Shown piece by piece: positions 1 through 54,030 of a stretch of DNA of 64,000 nt. Below the pieces are notes generated by a model. That model saw only the letters and a program-made list of their open reading frames with translations. It did not search any database and was not told where the DNA came from. Position numbers and translations under genes: made by a program. Source of the stretch: Escherichia phage fKMPT1; the sequence record PP620640. One strand, 5' to 3'. Within the stretch, counting starts at the first letter, position 1. Each line of letters starts with the position of its first letter.

Positions 1-63
1 CTAGAGGAAGCTTTTAAAAATAATATTGGTGCAATTGTAGTTGGTATTTTTAGTGTTATCGGA

Positions 64-363
64 ATGTATACCACGATGCAGGTTTCAAGTGGTAAACAAG
101 AGGTGTCTGTCAAAACAAAGTTACAACAGTTGGATAATTACACAAGTAGTAACTATTCAGCTATTCGTGATTTACAGTCTGACATTAGGCTTATCCAGTT
201 AGGGATGGAGAACCAGAAAGTCCAGTTAGAGAATGTTAAGGGTGAGAACGCAAAACTTACTAAAACCCTTGATAAATTCTCTGACAGCGTGAACAATCTG
301 GCTCAATCAGTATCAGCCCTCCAAGCTATTACTGAAAAGAACACAAAGAATACTGAAAAGTAA
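64..363 (+). CDS. hypothetical coiled-coil protein (C-terminal fragment of a longer gene possible)
   Basis: 99-aa ORF, heptad-like Q/L/K-rich sequence, followed by a hairpin terminator at 371-396. Confidence 0.5.
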   Translation: MYTTMQVSSGKQEVSVKTKLQQLDNYTSSNYSAIRDLQSDIRLIQLGMENQKVQLENVKGENAKLTKTLDKFSDSVNNLAQSVSALQAITEKNTKNTEK

Positions 364-1300: not shown

Positions 1301-1846
1301 TCAAAAGTGTCCTTTTACTTGTGGAACATAAATTTCAAAGGTTGCTTTACCATCCTCTGATGGTTTTGACTGTACCTTTGTAAATACACGGTTATCATAC
1401 AGCTTCTCGAAGAAGTTTTCAAAAGGTAAATGCACAGTGGTCTCTTCAGTAACTTTATGGAAAACTGTATGGAAAACTACACCAGCATACGGTAAAGCAT
1501 TGACAAGGACACCTGCACCACCAATTACAAAGACATCTTCATCAATAGAGCTATCAAGATAGTTCAAGAATGCTCCAAAGGATTCTTTGCTGGCCTTAGC
1601 ATACATTACATCATCTTTGCCAAAATCTATGCCTAAATATGGTACAGAATTTGTTAAGATTAGGTTTGCACGTTCTGGTAAAGGTTTACTCCCCAGAGTC
1701 TTGAAAGTTTCATTACCCATCACTACTAAGTTGTTTTTAGTGAGTCTCTTAAACTCTTGCATGTCCTGTTTATGTCGAGGCCACGGCATACCAGTTGGAG
1801 TACCAAACTCACCATTTTCACCACTTGCAAAGATTAATTTAATCAT
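1301..1846 (-). CDS. folA: dihydrofolate reductase
   Basis: 181 aa; MPWP motif, VVMGNETF...PLPER pattern; immediately upstream of thyA as in T4 frd-td. Confidence 0.85.
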   Translation of the reverse strand: MIKLIFASGENGEFGTPTGMPWPRHKQDMQEFKRLTKNNLVVMGNETFKTLGSKPLPERANLILTNSVPYLGIDFGKDDVMYAKASKESFGAFLNYLDSSIDEDVFVIGGAGVLVNALPYAGVVFHTVFHKVTEETTVHLPFENFFEKLYDNRVFTKVQSKPSEDGKATFEIYVPQVKGHF

Positions 1847-2103
1847 TTTGTAAATCCTTTCTTAATGAACCAGTTGACAACATTCTTCACAGCTTTATTG
1901 CTATGATAGATTAAGTGTGGTGTAGGTTGGTATGAACCATAGGCCCAGAAAGCAATAATTTCACTACACCCTGTACACCTTGTACTCTCTTCAGCAATAT
2001 GACCGTTGACTATTTCACTCACCTCACCTTGTAAGTCTGTACATCCACAATGTGGGCAACGGATAGGTGCTCCGTCAGACTCATAGCAGTGTTCAATTTT
2101 CAT
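1843..2103 (-). CDS. small zinc-ribbon protein
   Basis: 86 aa with CPHCGC...CTGC cysteine pairs. Confidence 0.5.
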   Translation of the reverse strand: MKIEHCYESDGAPIRCPHCGCTDLQGEVSEIVNGHIAEESTRCTGCSEIIAFWAYGSYQPTPHLIYHSNKAVKNVVNWFIKKGFTK

Positions 2104-4468: not shown

Positions 4469-5569
4469 TTACTCATAATCCCTAATAACTAGCCCAACAG
4501 GAAACTGTAAAGACCCCTTACGAGTCATCTTCTGGAACTGAACCGTTAAAGGTTTCCCGATAAACTCTTCAGGATGCTCAGCAAGATACTGTTTCTTCTC
4601 ATGAGTAGTCTTCCATGAGACATCTACAAAGACGTTAGGAAGCGTCTCTACAACGAACTTGCCATGACCACGTTTATCGGTCTTTACACCAGTTACTTTA
4701 AACTCTTCAGTGTGCATCTTCTTGTGCTTAATCAAGAAGTATGAACGGTGACAACACTCATAGAAGGAGTCTTCAGAAATTGAACGGTACATTGCACCTT
4801 CAAACTTAGCTTCAACCCACTTATCATGGGCTTCATCAAACTCTTCCCAAGAGTTAACACGACGAGATTTAACAGGGACAACTTTACAGCCATCTCTAAA
4901 GTCATTCAATGGTGAAGTCTCAATAATATCTCTACGCTCAGGCCACGTCTTAGTACTGTCACAGATATCATACCAGTAGAACTGGAGTAGATGTCGGTCT
5001 GGATTGTCAGCATTCTTAATCATAGACACAATGTCTTCTAAGTCCCAACCATGAGCATAAATCTCGCCATCAAAGTCTTTAACTTGCGGATGTAATTTAA
5101 GCAACAAAAGTAAATCTGGGATTAGTTCTGCTGGAACGTTGTAAACAGTATTCTCACGAGAATAAGCCGTGAAGCTAACTGAATCAGCATCTCTTGAAAT
5201 TCTACAACGAACACCATCAAGTTTTGGTTGAGCATCAGCAGGGAATATCAAATACTTTGCATGACTAACCTTTGCAGCATCATGCGCAAGCTGTACACCT
5301 ACCTTCTCAGTATTCTGTGCAGACTCTTTTGTGTAAGCATAACCTTTGCGGTCAACCTGCTTTTTATACTTAGCAGCAACTTCAAAGAGAGCTTGCTGTT
5401 CAGCGTTACGCTCATTCTTTTTACCGATGTTTTTAGGTTCTGCTGTATACTCTTCAAACATCATCTTGCCATTCTCTTTACCGTAGGTTGTAATAACTTT
5501 GTCGCCTACAGCAACACATGACCAGACGTTGAAGGAGCCATCTTTATTTTGTTTGTATAGAATTGTCAT
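4469..5569 (-). CDS. ATP-dependent DNA ligase
   Basis: 366 aa; adenylation motif I KLDGVR. Confidence 0.8.
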   Translation of the reverse strand: MTILYKQNKDGSFNVWSCVAVGDKVITTYGKENGKMMFEEYTAEPKNIGKKNERNAEQQALFEVAAKYKKQVDRKGYAYTKESAQNTEKVGVQLAHDAAKVSHAKYLIFPADAQPKLDGVRCRISRDADSVSFTAYSRENTVYNVPAELIPDLLLLLKLHPQVKDFDGEIYAHGWDLEDIVSMIKNADNPDRHLLQFYWYDICDSTKTWPERRDIIETSPLNDFRDGCKVVPVKSRRVNSWEEFDEAHDKWVEAKFEGAMYRSISEDSFYECCHRSYFLIKHKKMHTEEFKVTGVKTDKRGHGKFVVETLPNVFVDVSWKTTHEKKQYLAEHPEEFIGKPLTVQFQKMTRKGSLQFPVGLVIRDYE

Positions 5570-5772
5570 TTTCTCTTACCACCAATTTCTACGTCAATAA
5601 CTTGAATATCACCAGCATCATCAAACTTGTGAATGATGCTTTTCACAGTGTAAGTCCAACCCTCGATGCGAACCAATTCACCTTCTCGTGGAACTATTGG
5701 GTTACGTTGAGCTACCGTTGTAGTGGAGTGAACAACATCATAACAATAGATATAGTTTACTAGGACTTCCAT
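5566..5772 (-). CDS. hypothetical protein
   Basis: 68-aa ORF. Confidence 0.45.
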   Translation of the reverse strand: MEVLVNYIYCYDVVHSTTTVAQRNPIVPREGELVRIEGWTYTVKSIIHKFDDAGDIQVIDVEIGGKRK

Positions 5773-5781
5773 GCCTTTTCC

Positions 5782-6015
5782 TTAAAATGATAAGTCAATA
5801 TTGATACGTTCACCCTTAAGGACTCCTGTACGGTCCCTTGCAATCTTACCGTCAACAATAAGGATATGCGCAGACCTTAAAGATTCACTATTAAAACCTT
5901 TTACGAACTTACTAGGCATAACTACAATAAGCATCTCTTGAATCAACTCTGGAGTGTAGCAGTTGTCGTGAAGTTGCTGAATAACGTCTGCAAGTGTCAT
6001 TTTTGATGTCTCCAA
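5782..6015 (-). CDS. small protein, paralog of 6203-6421
   Basis: 77 aa; shares MTL..E..QL...Y...I..M.IV......K.N.E.LR...I.I..GKIA.D.TG.LKGER.NI with 6203-6421. Confidence 0.5.
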   Translation of the reverse strand: METSKMTLADVIQQLHDNCYTPELIQEMLIVVMPSKFVKGFNSESLRSAHILIVDGKIARDRTGVLKGERINIDLSF

Positions 6016-37180: not shown

Positions 37181-37729
37181 ATGAAGAATTTGATTCTAGG
37201 TTTGTGCTTAATGTTTACAGCACACTTATCTTATGCAGTTGACTGCCCAGAGCTATCAATTAGCCAAAAAGTAAACATGTTAAAAGCTTACCAGTATGGT
37301 GAGAACAACATGGGTAAAGGTTGGGGTATCACTCTAGCAGCTATAGCCTTACAAGAGTCAGAGTTAGGTCTGAAGGTAGAGAATAAAAAGACCCATGACT
37401 ATGGTATTTTCCAGAATCACTTGAAGACTGTTGTAAAGCGTAACAAAATCAGTCCTAATGTGGCTAAAAAGAAACTCTTAAAAGATTTTGACTATGCTGC
37501 AAAAGAGACACATAAAGAGCTTGAGTTTTGGACTAAGGTACATGGTCACCCGAAGTCAAAGAAGACTTTACAAAAAGTTTTGGCATCATATAATGCTGGG
37601 TATTCGTACAAAATCCCTAAAGCTAAGAAATACTCTCAAGATGTCTATAACAATATGAAAGTTATTGCTCAATGTGAATTTGCAACAAACATTTCTAAGG
37701 TAAATCATGAAAAAATTAAGAAAGTCTGA
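37181..37729 (+). CDS. secreted lytic-transglycosylase-like protein
   Basis: signal peptide MKNLILGLCLMFTAHLSYA; LAAIALQESELG resembles SLT catalytic region. Confidence 0.45.
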   Translation: MKNLILGLCLMFTAHLSYAVDCPELSISQKVNMLKAYQYGENNMGKGWGITLAAIALQESELGLKVENKKTHDYGIFQNHLKTVVKRNKISPNVAKKKLLKDFDYAAKETHKELEFWTKVHGHPKSKKTLQKVLASYNAGYSYKIPKAKKYSQDVYNNMKVIAQCEFATNISKVNHEKIKKV

Positions 37730-38402
37730 TGAAGTCCTGTGCCACGCTTATGACTTGCATCCTCATGAGTTAGGTCTTGATTCCTGTGTATGGACTCCAG
37801 AACAGTGCAGGGATTTTGAAGACACTGCAAGAGAAGTTGTATGTTCACTTGAAGAGTTCCACACATCAGAACCAATTGTGAACGTTGTGGATAAAGAAAC
37901 TGGACAAGCTATAGGTGTAAGTCGTGATAGTTTAGTCATAGTCAATGAAGACCTTGTAGAAAAAGGTAACCTCATCTTAGCAGATATTGATGGTGTTCTT
38001 ACAAATTTTAATCACGAAGATTGCTCAACGGAATTGACTGACGGGTCATTTTCACAGTACACTAATCTTCTTGACTCTGTAAGAGCAAAACCAACATATA
38101 TTTTCAGTATCATTGATGCAATTGCTAATCATGCTGCCATTGGCCTCTTAACAGCAAGAGGTGAAACTCAGAGAATACCTACTGAGATGTTCTTGAGGCA
38201 CAATATAGAGCATGATTACATGCTTTTTATGCGTGGTTTTGGAACTAACTCTCTAAGTGCAGAAAGTTTAAAAGTGAGGATGATTCAGTCTTGCATTCTT
38301 CCTTACTTTAATATAGTATGTTTTATAGAAGATACAGAGAAGAATGTTCAGAAGGTTAACAGAATCCTTCCACACATCAAAACCATGCTAGTTAAACATT
38401 GA
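37707..38402 (+). CDS. HAD-like phosphatase/nucleotidase candidate
   Basis: LILADIDGVLT resembles HAD motif I DxDGT. Confidence 0.4.
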   Translation: MKKLRKSDEVLCHAYDLHPHELGLDSCVWTPEQCRDFEDTAREVVCSLEEFHTSEPIVNVVDKETGQAIGVSRDSLVIVNEDLVEKGNLILADIDGVLTNFNHEDCSTELTDGSFSQYTNLLDSVRAKPTYIFSIIDAIANHAAIGLLTARGETQRIPTEMFLRHNIEHDYMLFMRGFGTNSLSAESLKVRMIQSCILPYFNIVCFIEDTEKNVQKVNRILPHIKTMLVKH

Positions 38403-38888: not shown

Positions 38889-38911
38889 AGGCTCCTTCGG
38901 GAGCCTTTTTC
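38889..38911 (+). terminator. rho-independent terminator
   Basis: ggctcc-ttcg-ggagcc hairpin + TTTTT. Confidence 0.6.
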
Positions 38912-38929: not shown

Positions 38930-39277
38930 ATGACATTTAAAGAGTTTTGTCAAGCTACTTTCATAATTGTTTTCTTAGTTGGGGCAGGTGTCTGGGGAGG
39001 ATACTCTTACAGAGACTACCAAGTTGCTGAAGCTGAGCTAAATAATGAGAAACTAATAAGTGTCGCTAAAGATGCTTATCAGGAAGGTTTAGTCACACTC
39101 AGCACCAATTACAAAAATGATTTGAAAGACGTGCTTGCTAAGAATAAGCATACAAAAGAGGTACTAACATATGAAAAAACTAAGCCAGAGTTTTATAATG
39201 TTTGTGTTACTGATAATTATGTCAGGGTGTTCAACGAACAAAGTGAACAGTACATTCAAAAACTCCCAAGTAAGTGA
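38930..39277 (+). CDS. i-spanin-like protein (N-terminal TM, periplasmic coiled-coil)
   Basis: TM segment FIIVFLVGAGVWGG then charged helical region; overlapped by lipoprotein ORF. Confidence 0.45.
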   Translation: MTFKEFCQATFIIVFLVGAGVWGGYSYRDYQVAEAELNNEKLISVAKDAYQEGLVTLSTNYKNDLKDVLAKNKHTKEVLTYEKTKPEFYNVCVTDNYVRVFNEQSEQYIQKLPSK

Positions 39278-39440
39278 GAGTGACAAGTACACTCAAGAAG
39301 AATCAAGATTCACTGTCAAAGGCAACACTGGTAGTGATGTGGCAGCAGCCCTTGAGTTTTATCGTGATGGTTTTTACCAGTGCACAATCAAAGCTAATAA
39401 CCTTATTGATATGATTTTATTAGGAAACAAACAGCAATGA
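39171..39440 (+). CDS. o-spanin-like lipoprotein
   Basis: lipoprotein signal with lipobox IMSGC; starts inside 38930-39277 in another frame. Confidence 0.45.
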   Translation: MKKLSQSFIMFVLLIIMSGCSTNKVNSTFKNSQVSESDKYTQEESRFTVKGNTGSDVAAALEFYRDGFYQCTIKANNLIDMILLGNKQQ

Positions 39441-53565: not shown

Positions 53566-54030
53566 TTACTTTGGGTATACGCTGTCAAGATAAATGTCAG
53601 CTTCCATTCTACGTCTGTTTTTAAGACCGTTTGAGGTGACCTTCTTACCTTTGACTGTAACCTTGTTCCACCACTGCATAGCTTCTGCACAACCTACCTT
53701 ATTACAAGCATTGTGGCGCTTGATAAATGTAGAATCCTGCATAGCTGTGATACCGATGTTGTATGTTTCACTTACAAGTGCATCGAACTCATTCTGAGAA
53801 GTTGGAACCTTGATAGCTTTGTTCACTGCTGCAACAAACTTTTCAACATCTGCGAGAAGATACTGTTCGGCTTGTTCAGCAGTAATTTTCATACCCATCT
53901 TAACAGGTTTACCAGAAATACTGGTTGTCCCATACCCAATTGTAGGGATTCCAGCAGAGTCTTCGTAAGCCTCTAACTTCAGACCTTCAAAGAACTTAAT
54001 AGCTTCTAAACCTTTTCTTGAGAGTTGCAT
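53566..54030 (-). CDS. lysozyme (T4 e-type, GH24) endolysin
   Basis: KGLEAIKFFEGLKLEAYEDSAGIPTIGYGT matches catalytic N-terminus of T4-type lysozymes. Confidence 0.8.
   Translation of the reverse strand: MQLSRKGLEAIKFFEGLKLEAYEDSAGIPTIGYGTTSISGKPVKMGMKITAEQAEQYLLADVEKFVAAVNKAIKVPTSQNEFDALVSETYNIGITAMQDSTFIKRHNACNKVGCAEAMQWWNKVTVKGKKVTSNGLKNRRRMEADIYLDSVYPK

What the first reader, a model, noticed from the sequence alone, without database searches (positions are those of the whole stretch)
38930..39440. Overlapped i-spanin / o-spanin-like pair located far from the endolysin
The 38930 ORF has an N-terminal TM helix and a charged helical periplasmic region. A second ORF starts inside it in another frame and encodes a lipoprotein (lipobox IMSGC), the classical overlapped Rz/Rz1 arrangement. 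The T4-type lysozyme is 14 kb away on the opposite strand, so the lysis functions appear dispersed.
Basis: partly seen in the sequence, partly recalled or inferred. Interest (0 to 1): 0.35.

Follow-up and report, generated by a model that had tools for sequence, protein, structure and literature searches.

The report
Felix O1-type overlapped spanin gene pair
These two overlapping genes are the already catalogued inner- and outer-membrane "spanin" pair that Felix O1-like phages are predicted to use to break the host outer membrane at lysis. Both the overlap and its distance from the lysozyme gene are published features of this phage group, so the finding is correct but ordinary.

Summary
ORF 38930..39277 (+, 115 aa) has one N-terminal membrane helix and a mostly helical, charged remainder. 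ORF 39171..39440 (+1 frame, 89 aa) begins inside it with a 107-nt overlap and opens with a lipoprotein signal, MKKLSQSFIMFVLLIIMSG|C. It is the only lipobox-positive ORF in the 64-kb window.

The window is a Felixounavirus, 100% identical to Salmonella phage fBSPA4. The same pair, with the same geometry, appears in five diverged phage groups. In the P2-like phage SI7 it lies directly after holin and endolysin. The overlap shows about half the nucleotide divergence of its flanks and no third-position excess, so both frames are under selection.

Kongari et al. 2018 list the Felix O1 pair in their spanin survey as overlapped, with a 107-nt overlap, in the "JH2" families. Genome announcements state that Felix O1-like lysis genes are scattered. 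The lysozyme is at 53566..54030 (-), 14.1 kb away.

Three corrections apply:
- Lambda Rz/Rz1 is embedded; the overlapped layout is that of P2 LysB/LysC.
- There is no detectable sequence similarity to Rz, LysB or PseT.3.
- No coiled coil was predicted for the Felix O1 protein.

Function remains untested for this family. Verdict: already known, low interest.

The parts
38930..39277 (+). i-spanin gene (115 aa). It has an N-terminal transmembrane helix at about residues 6-24 and an 87-88 aa periplasmic domain. The C-terminal motif F88-x-N90-x-C92 ... F101-N102 is conserved.
   Evidence: ORF and hydropathy. phrog_1152 'Rz-like spanin' E=1.1e-41. Invariant residues across diverged relatives. AF2 model is all-helical at low confidence (mean pLDDT 61.7). 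Listed as the Felix01 overlapped i-spanin in Kongari 2018 Table S1.
39171..39440 (+). o-spanin gene (89 aa precursor) in the +1 frame. The signal peptide is residues 1-19, the lipobox is IMSG|C, and the lipid-modified Cys20 is followed by Ser. The mature protein is 70 aa and has no proline. Cys71 sits in a predicted C-terminal helix.
   Evidence: phrog_4180 E=5.4e-51 and phrog_456 'Rz-like spanin' E=7.9e-5. Conserved C20-S21-T22, G54, C71, N76, L78. AF2 gives a low-confidence segment at 17-44 and a helix at 54-88. Same start as the curated Mijalis o-spanin. Kongari 2018 tables give 89 aa, 70 aa mature, lipobox IMSG.
39171..39277 (+). Dual-coding segment of 107 nt. It encodes i-spanin residues 81-115 (the conserved C-terminal motif) and o-spanin residues 1-35 (signal peptide and lipobox).
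   Evidence: Divergence from three relatives is 9-12% here against 18-27% in the flanks. Variable sites by codon position are 8/6/9 here, against 18/13/46 and 12/8/40 in the flanks. No variable site is silent in both frames. All.
38889..38906 (+). GC-rich hairpin with a TTCG loop followed by a T-run, which looks like an intrinsic terminator. It ends 24 nt before the i-spanin ATG.
   Evidence: The equivalent element is annotated as a terminator in phage Mijalis.
53566..54030 (-). Endolysin (154 aa, phage lysozyme family). It is the enzyme whose cell-wall degradation should release spanin action.
   Evidence: PF00959 E=1.5e-40. phrog_7 endolysin E=6.7e-57. Annotated lysin or endolysin in relatives.
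1..363 (+). Homologue of the 'putative holin' of phage Moogle (CPT_Moogle54). It has one N-terminal hydrophobic stretch, judged by eye, and a long C-terminal part. The first three codons are cut off by the window edge.
   Evidence: tblastn: 88% identity over 120 aa, E=1e-68. Translation. Moogle annotation. PHROG gives only phrog_4038, function unknown. The holin role is a published guess, not shown.

Best explanation
This is the two-component spanin of a Felix O1-like phage, of the overlapped architecture and the 'JH2' sequence families of Kongari et al. 2018.

The proposed mechanism is as follows; every step is inferred unless marked as shown.
1. The 115-aa product inserts into the inner membrane by its N-terminal helix, with the C-terminal 87-88 residues in the periplasm.
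2. The 89-aa product is exported, lipid-modified on Cys20 and cleaved. [quoted passage not shown]
3. Its roughly 30-residue flexible linker and C-terminal helix reach the i-spanin C-terminal domain, so complexes span the periplasm through the cell-wall mesh. This contact is inferred from the conserved motifs on both proteins.
4. The single conserved periplasmic cysteine in each protein (C92 and C71) probably forms intermolecular disulfides, by analogy with lambda and T4.
5. The complexes stay inert while the cell wall is intact. Once the holin lets the lysozyme (53566..54030) destroy the wall, they change shape or cluster and fuse or disrupt the outer membrane. This is the last step of lysis.
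6. Gating by the state of the cell wall explains why the genes need not sit in a lysis cassette.

What is shown here is limited to the ORFs, their signals, the overlap, its conservation, dual-frame selection and the genomic contexts. Topology, complex formation, disulfides and lytic function are all inferred from lambda, P2 and T4 work.
For: Sequence features.

Family assignment: phrog_1152 'Rz-like spanin' E=1.1e-41 for the first ORF, and a weak phrog_456 'Rz-like spanin' hit (E=7.9e-5) for the second.

Conservation of the arrangement: a +1-frame lipoprotein ORF starts in the last third of the i-spanin gene in Mooglevirus, a Hafnia Ounavirinae phage, Kuravirus, Kolesnikvirus and the P2-like phage SI7, with overlaps of 107-191 nt. 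In SI7 the pair directly follows holin and endolysin.

Conserved residues: C92 and F-x-N-x-C...F-N in the i-spanin; C20-S-T and C71 in the o-spanin.

Dual-frame constraint on the overlap.

Structure models, at low confidence: a helical i-spanin periplasmic domain, and an o-spanin with a low-confidence linker plus a C-terminal helix.

Literature: the Felix O1 pair is listed with these coordinates, lengths, lipobox and 107-nt overlap (PMC6139136). The entry for the near-identical EC6 o-spanin notes that its start was moved so that it had a LipoP signal sequence. Lysis genes are described as scattered in Felix O1-like phages (PMC4319497; PMC6486253; PMC3185647). T4 spanins are likewise remote from the T4 holin and endolysin genes and complement a lambda spanin defect.
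Against: I found no experiment on any member of this sequence family.

No Pfam or NCBIfam spanin model matches either protein. Profile comparison with lambda Rz, P2 LysB and T4 PseT.3 gives probabilities of 1% or less.

The o-spanin has none of the prolines that matter in lambda Rz1. The published Pepcoil run found no coiled coil in the Felix O1 i-spanin.

Both structure models have mean pLDDT near 60 and were built on shallow alignments.

A terminator-like hairpin sits immediately upstream, and no promoter was identified between it and the gene. When the pair is expressed is therefore unknown.
Confidence: 0.9

Rival explanations
1. The pair is a membrane protein and an outer-membrane lipoprotein with a non-lytic role. 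An example would be superinfection exclusion or receptor masking, as done by the lipoproteins T5 Llp or Cor. On this view the true outer-membrane disruptor lies elsewhere in the genome.
For: The genes sit among rII and nucleotide-metabolism genes rather than with the endolysin, and they follow a terminator. No curated spanin model matches. The best PHROG for the lipoprotein, phrog_4180, is of unknown function. About 23 kb of the roughly 87-kb genome lies outside the window.
Against: The two genes stay translationally entangled across five diverged phage groups. In SI7 they occupy the slot after holin and endolysin that lysB/lysC occupy in P2. Both proteins carry conserved C-terminal motifs with a conserved cysteine, which fits a partner interaction. 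No other lipoprotein ORF exists in the window. The surveys and announcements I read name no other spanin in Felix O1-like phages. T4 shows that spanins can be remote from the other lysis genes.
Confidence: 0.06
2. Only the first ORF is a gene. The +1 ORF is a chance open frame whose N-terminus happens to look like a lipoprotein signal.
For: The ORF is short, at 89 codons. Many gene callers start it at Met17 or later, or skip it. One comparative paper reports only the i-spanin in one Felixounavirus.
Against: The non-overlapping 163 nt of the ORF varies mostly at third codon positions (12/8/40). The overlap shows reduced divergence with no third-position excess. The start, the signal peptide, Cys-Ser-Thr and the C-terminal motif are kept in relatives whose i-spanin identity is only 25-37%. 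A GAGGT Shine-Dalgarno sequence lies 8-9 nt upstream. It is the only lipobox ORF among 625 candidates.
Confidence: 0.02

Closest known systems
Felix O1 / JH2-family overlapped spanins (Kongari et al. 2018, SpaninDB; Felix O1 NC_005282, coordinates listed as 5330-5678 and 5571-5841)
   Same: It is essentially the same gene pair. The lengths match (115 aa and 89 aa), as do the 107-nt overlap, the lipobox IMSG|C, the 70-aa mature o-spanin and the RBS sequences. Protein identity to other Felixounavirus copies is 96-100%.
   Different: Nothing of substance differs. There are a few substitutions, for example AEAELNNEK here against AETELNNQK in Felix O1. In the 100% identical GenBank record the products are called hypothetical, and the o-spanin start is placed at Met17.
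Phage P2 LysB / LysC
   Same: Both have the overlapped architecture, with the o-spanin gene starting in the +1 frame inside the 3' part of the i-spanin gene and running past its stop. The i-spanin has an N-terminal membrane anchor and the o-spanin is a lipoprotein. A distant homologue of the present i-spanin sits in the lysB position of a P2-like phage.
   Different: No significant sequence similarity was found: hhalign probability is 1% for the i-spanins and 5.6% for the o-spanins. The P2 genes lie in a lysis cassette after holin and endolysin, whereas here they do not.
Phage T4 PseT.3 / PseT.2
   Same: Both are spanin genes far from the endolysin and holin genes, in a region of early or nucleotide-metabolism genes. 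Both lie one gene away from a polynucleotide-kinase-type gene. The i-spanins are of similar size (the T4 translation used was 116 aa). Both o-spanins are structured and not proline-rich, with a predicted C-terminal helix.
   Different: T4 has the separated architecture, whereas this pair is overlapped. T4 PseT.3 has no periplasmic cysteine and PseT.2 has two; here each protein has one. There is no significant sequence similarity; the 51% hhalign probability for the o-spanins rests on the lipobox region.
Phage lambda Rz / Rz1
   Same: Both are two-component spanins with an inner-membrane anchor protein and an outer-membrane lipoprotein, with intermolecular disulfides expected, and with the second gene in the +1 frame of the first.
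   Different: Rz1 is wholly embedded in Rz, is 40 aa when mature with 10 prolines, and is unstructured. Rz has two coiled-coil domains. Here the o-spanin is 70 aa when mature with no proline and a predicted helix, and no coiled coil was predicted for the Felix O1 i-spanin. There is no sequence similarity.

Membership tests
Two-component spanin (functional class, criteria of Kongari et al. 2018) | The i-spanin has a single N-terminal transmembrane domain followed by a periplasmic domain. | tested here: met
   Hydropathy maximum at residues 6-24, and no other hydrophobic segment. The N-in/C-out orientation is inferred, not tested.
Two-component spanin (functional class, criteria of Kongari et al. 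2018) | The o-spanin has an outer-membrane lipoprotein signal: a signal peptide, a lipobox and a Cys, with no inner-membrane retention residue (Asp) at +2. | tested here: met
   The PS51257-like pattern matches MKKLSQSFIMFVLLIIMSGC, and residue +2 is Ser. Kongari 2018 records a LipoP signal sequence for the near-identical EC6 protein. No formal predictor could be run here.
Two-component spanin (functional class, criteria of Kongari et al. 2018) | The o-spanin gene is embedded in, overlapping with, or directly following the i-spanin gene on the same strand. | tested here: met
   It is in the +1 frame with a 107-nt overlap, and this is conserved in five diverged groups.
Two-component spanin (functional class, criteria of Kongari et al. 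2018) | At least one periplasmic cysteine is available for intermolecular disulfide bonds (found in 507 of 528 systems). | tested here: met
   C92 in the i-spanin and C71 in the o-spanin are both invariant in the diverged alignments. Bond formation was not tested.
Two-component spanin (functional class, criteria of Kongari et al. 2018) | The pair is required for outer-membrane disruption at lysis, or complements a lambda Rz/Rz1 defect. | not testable with these tools
   I found no experiment on this sequence family.
JH2 / Felix O1 i- and o-spanin sequence families | Sequence similarity to the listed members (JH2, EC6, Felix01, Moogle, wV8, phiEco32 and others). | tested here: met
   There is 97-99% identity to the JH2 and wV8 i-spanins and 76-77% to Mooglevirus. 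The sequences printed in the paper's tables are near-identical to the window's.
Lambda Rz (Pfam Phage_lysis) and Rz1 families | A match to the family profile. | tested here: not met
   No Pfam hit to any spanin family at E up to 0.1. hhalign against Rz gives a probability of 0.4%.
P2 LysB / LysC families | Detectable sequence homology. | tested here: not met
   hhalign probabilities are 1.0% and 5.6%.
T4 PseT.3 / PseT.2 families | Detectable sequence homology. | tested here: not met
   hhalign gives 0.7% for the i-spanin. It gives 51% for the o-spanin, but only over the lipobox and linker region. BLASTP is not significant.

The most novel reading that the evidence does not exclude
The JH2-type spanin may work by a mechanism different from lambda's. 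It has no proline-rich o-spanin, no predicted coiled coil and exactly one conserved cysteine in each partner. The conserved o-spanin C-terminal helix (with C71) could dock on the conserved i-spanin C-terminal F-x-N-x-C...F-N domain (with C92). A heterotypic i-o disulfide might then form, instead of the homotypic bonds seen in lambda and T4. The complex would be made early in infection, behind a leaky terminator.
Probability: 0.12. Interest if true: 0.35.

Novelty: already known. Interest (0 to 1): 0.07.

Why it matters
The finding matters little beyond annotation. The pair and its remote position are already published for Felix O1-like phages.

The practical value is the corrected gene model. 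The 100% identical GenBank record calls both products hypothetical and starts the o-spanin at Met17, which removes its signal peptide. Most database copies share that error.

Felix O1-like phages are used for Salmonella and E. coli biocontrol, so a correct lysis gene set has modest applied value. This spanin family lacks both prolines and predicted coiled coils, and it has never been tested experimentally. It would therefore make a reasonable comparison case for how spanins fuse membranes.

Tried and rejected
- Pfam and NCBIfam scans of both proteins found no spanin family. The only hits were sub-threshold matches to lipoprotein signal regions and unrelated families.
- Profile and BLASTP comparisons with lambda Rz, P2 LysB/LysC and T4 PseT.3/PseT.2 found no significant similarity.
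- The large protein database search returned only close relatives, at least 53% identical over the full length. The alignments for structure prediction were therefore shallow, and both models had mean pLDDT near 60. I did not run fold searches on models of that quality.
- I tested whether the 'putative lysin' annotated upstream in some relatives (37181..37729) is a cassette endolysin. It is a secreted SLT-like protein homologous to T4 vs.1 and is widespread in large myoviruses, and T4's lysis endolysin is a different gene (e). I therefore did not count it as the lysis enzyme.
- I tested whether the neighbouring 'polynucleotide kinase' is a clear homologue of T4 PseT, which would have suggested shared synteny. 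The match is weak (E about 0.1) and centres on the D-x-D-G phosphatase motif.
- A first null model counted out-of-frame ORFs that run past a gene's stop. It was uninformative because ordinary short gene overlaps dominate it. I replaced it with the window-wide lipobox scan.

Full report
**What is in the sequence**

ORF 38930..39277 (+) encodes 115 aa and ORF 39171..39440 (+) encodes 89 aa. The second ORF starts 241 nt into the first, in the +1 frame, and the two share 107 nt.

The first protein has a single hydrophobic segment at residues 6-24, FCQATFIIVFLVGAGVWGG, with a Kyte-Doolittle 19-residue mean of 1.75. This is followed by 87 residues rich in K, E, N and L, with one cysteine, C92.

The second protein begins MKKLSQSFIMFVLLIIMSGC. 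That fits a lipobox pattern I wrote after the PROSITE PS51257 rule, recalled from memory. The residue after the cysteine is Ser. The mature 70-aa part has no proline and one further cysteine, C71.

Both starts have Shine-Dalgarno sequences: AGGAG for the first and GAGGT 8-9 nt upstream for the second.

**Is it more than chance?**

Among 625 ATG-started ORF candidates of at least 40 aa on both strands of the 64-kb window, this is the only one that passes the lipobox test.

I compared the window with Mijalis, mistaenkt and Sf14.

| Segment | Divergence from the three relatives | Variable sites at codon positions 1/2/3 |
|---|---|---|
| i-spanin only | 18-26% | 18/13/46 |
| Overlap | 9-12% | 8/6/9 |
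| o-spanin only | 24-27% | 12/8/40 |

No variable site in the overlap is silent in both frames.

**What phage this is**

The region is 100% identical to Salmonella phage fBSPA4. It is 90-98% identical to more than 200 Felixounavirus genomes of Escherichia, Salmonella, Shigella and Citrobacter.

In many of these the two genes are annotated i-spanin and o-spanin. In fBSPA4 itself they are 'hypothetical protein'.

**Family evidence**

The first protein matches phrog_1152 'Rz-like spanin' over its full length, E=1.1e-41. The second matches phrog_4180 (unknown function, E=5.4e-51) and, weakly, phrog_456 'Rz-like spanin' (E=7.9e-5). Neither Pfam nor NCBIfam has a model for either protein.

tblastn finds the i-spanin in 402 phage records. 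These include other Ounavirinae (Mooglevirus, Suspvirus, Kolesnikvirus of Erwinia, a Hafnia phage), Kuravirus podophages and the P2-like Salmonella phage SI7.

In each of five diverged representatives I found a +1-frame ORF that starts in the last third of the i-spanin gene. Each encodes an 86-98 aa lipoprotein, with overlaps of 107-191 nt.

The alignments show invariant residues:
- i-spanin: F88, N90, C92, F101 and N102.
- o-spanin: C20-S21-T22, G54, C71, N76 and L78.

In SI7 the pair directly follows the holin and endolysin genes, which is the position lysB/lysC hold in P2.

**What is already published**

Kongari et al. 2018 (PMC6139136) list Felix01, JH2, EC6, wV8, Moogle and others in one i-spanin family and one o-spanin family, both named 'JH2'. 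They place Felix01 in the overlapped class.

Their supplementary tables give these values for Felix O1:
- Coordinates listed as 5330-5678 and 5571-5841, with a 107-nt overlap.
- A 115-aa i-spanin and an 89-aa o-spanin.
- A 19-residue signal, lipobox IMSG and a 70-aa mature protein.

The printed sequences are almost identical to the window's. For EC6 the authors noted that the o-spanin start had to be moved to obtain a LipoP signal.

Their Jpred figures for Felix O1 are 66% helix in the i-spanin periplasmic domain, and 20% helix with 16% strand in the o-spanin. Their Pepcoil run found no coiled coil in the i-spanin.

[quoted passage not shown] The Meda announcement and the Felix O1 genome paper say the same in other words.

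**The other lysis genes in the window**

The lysozyme is at 53566..54030 (-). It matches PF00959 with E=1.5e-40 and phrog_7 endolysin with E=6.7e-57. It lies 14.1 kb from the spanins, beside a tail-type gene.

The homologue of Moogle's 'putative holin' is at 1..363 (+) and is cut by the window edge. PHROG gives it no function.

**Structure predictions**

The database search returned only close relatives, so the alignments were shallow.
- The i-spanin model has mean pLDDT 61.7. It is all-helical, with the membrane helix and then helices at 39-56, 65-79, 85-92 and 95-111.
- The o-spanin model has mean pLDDT 59.4. It shows the signal helix, a low-confidence segment at 17-44 and a helix at 54-88 with pLDDT about 75.

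These models support 'helical' and 'linker plus helix' only weakly. I did not use them for fold searches.

**Comparison with the paradigms**

Profile comparisons with lambda Rz, P2 LysB and T4 PseT.3 give probabilities of 1% or less. The o-spanin gives 5.6% against LysC. It gives 51% against PseT.2, but only over the lipobox region. BLASTP against the T4 proteins is not significant.

This is therefore a separate sequence family that shares only the architecture and targeting signals of the class. The gene layout is that of P2 (overlapped), not lambda (embedded). The remote genomic position resembles T4, where pseT.3/pseT.2 lie far from the holin and endolysin genes and one gene from pseT.

**Mechanism**

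The steps below are inferred from the lambda, P2 and T4 literature cited, and from established knowledge of lipoprotein sorting.
1. The i-spanin is anchored in the inner membrane.
2. The o-spanin is lipid-modified on Cys20 and sent to the outer membrane.
3. The two meet through their C-terminal conserved regions and span the periplasm through the cell-wall mesh.
4. Disulfides through C92 and C71 probably stabilise oligomers.
5. The complex acts only after the lysozyme has removed the wall, which is why co-location with the other lysis genes is unnecessary.

None of these steps has been tested for this family.

**Rivals**

A non-lytic membrane protein and lipoprotein pair is unlikely. The arguments against it are the conserved entanglement, the SI7 cassette context and the absence of any other lipoprotein ORF in the window. 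A chance second ORF is excluded for practical purposes by the substitution pattern and the conservation.

**Verdict**

The feature is already catalogued, so novelty is nil and interest is low.

Noticed in passing
window 37181..37729 (+): This 182-aa protein starts with what looks, by eye, like a Sec-type signal peptide (MKNLILGLCLMFTAHLSYA|VD). It also carries motifs that I recall as the three lytic-transglycosylase SLT signatures (ALQES, GIFQ, SYNAGY). Its Pfam SLT score is just below threshold, at 18.8 against 21.3 bits. It is a homologue of T4 vs.1 and is present in 2128 phage records. Some relatives annotate it 'putative lysin', and others mislabel it as an endoribonuclease. It lies 1.2 kb upstream of the spanins and its role is unknown.
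   Followed up: partly
window 1..363 (+): This is a homologue (88% aa identity) of the 'putative holin' of phage Moogle, cut by the window edge. It has one N-terminal hydrophobic stretch and a long C-terminal part. PHROG assigns no function. It lies 38.6 kb from the spanins, so all three lysis functions are apart.
   Followed up: partly
window 38889..38906 (+): A strong terminator-like hairpin (GGCTCC-TTCG-GGAGCC plus a T-run) ends 24 nt before the i-spanin start codon, and no sigma-70-like promoter lies in between. The same element is annotated as a terminator in Mijalis. The spanins may therefore depend on read-through or on an unrecognised promoter type.
   Followed up: no
window 39171..39440 and database copies (L001, L002, L003, L014, L015; P0023-P0039): Most GenBank and metagenome gene calls for the o-spanin start at Met17 or further downstream, which deletes the signal peptide. 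One 73-aa truncated cluster alone holds 303 member sequences. The 100% identical record fBSPA4 has this error.
   Followed up: yes
window 37707..38402 (+) with 38930..39440; T4 locus L013: The spanin pair lies one gene from a gene that PHROGs calls 'polynucleotide kinase'. That protein aligns only weakly with the part of T4 PseT around its D-x-D-G motif (E about 0.1). In T4, pseT.3/pseT.2 likewise lie one gene from pseT, although the spanins themselves show no detectable homology.
   Followed up: partly
hit H21, MG065668.1 'Campylobacter phage A126' (43 kb): A record labelled as a Campylobacter phage carries an i-spanin 100% identical to this Felixounavirus. One Staphylococcus-labelled record also matches the region. 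These are probably mislabelled or contaminated records.
   Followed up: no
L008 (Salmonella phage SI7, NC_049460) 1658..1954: This is an unannotated 98-aa lipoprotein ORF (signal ...LLMITSG|CSTK). It overlaps the annotated 'Rz-like spanin' by 191 nt and is the missing o-spanin of that P2-like phage.
   Followed up: yes
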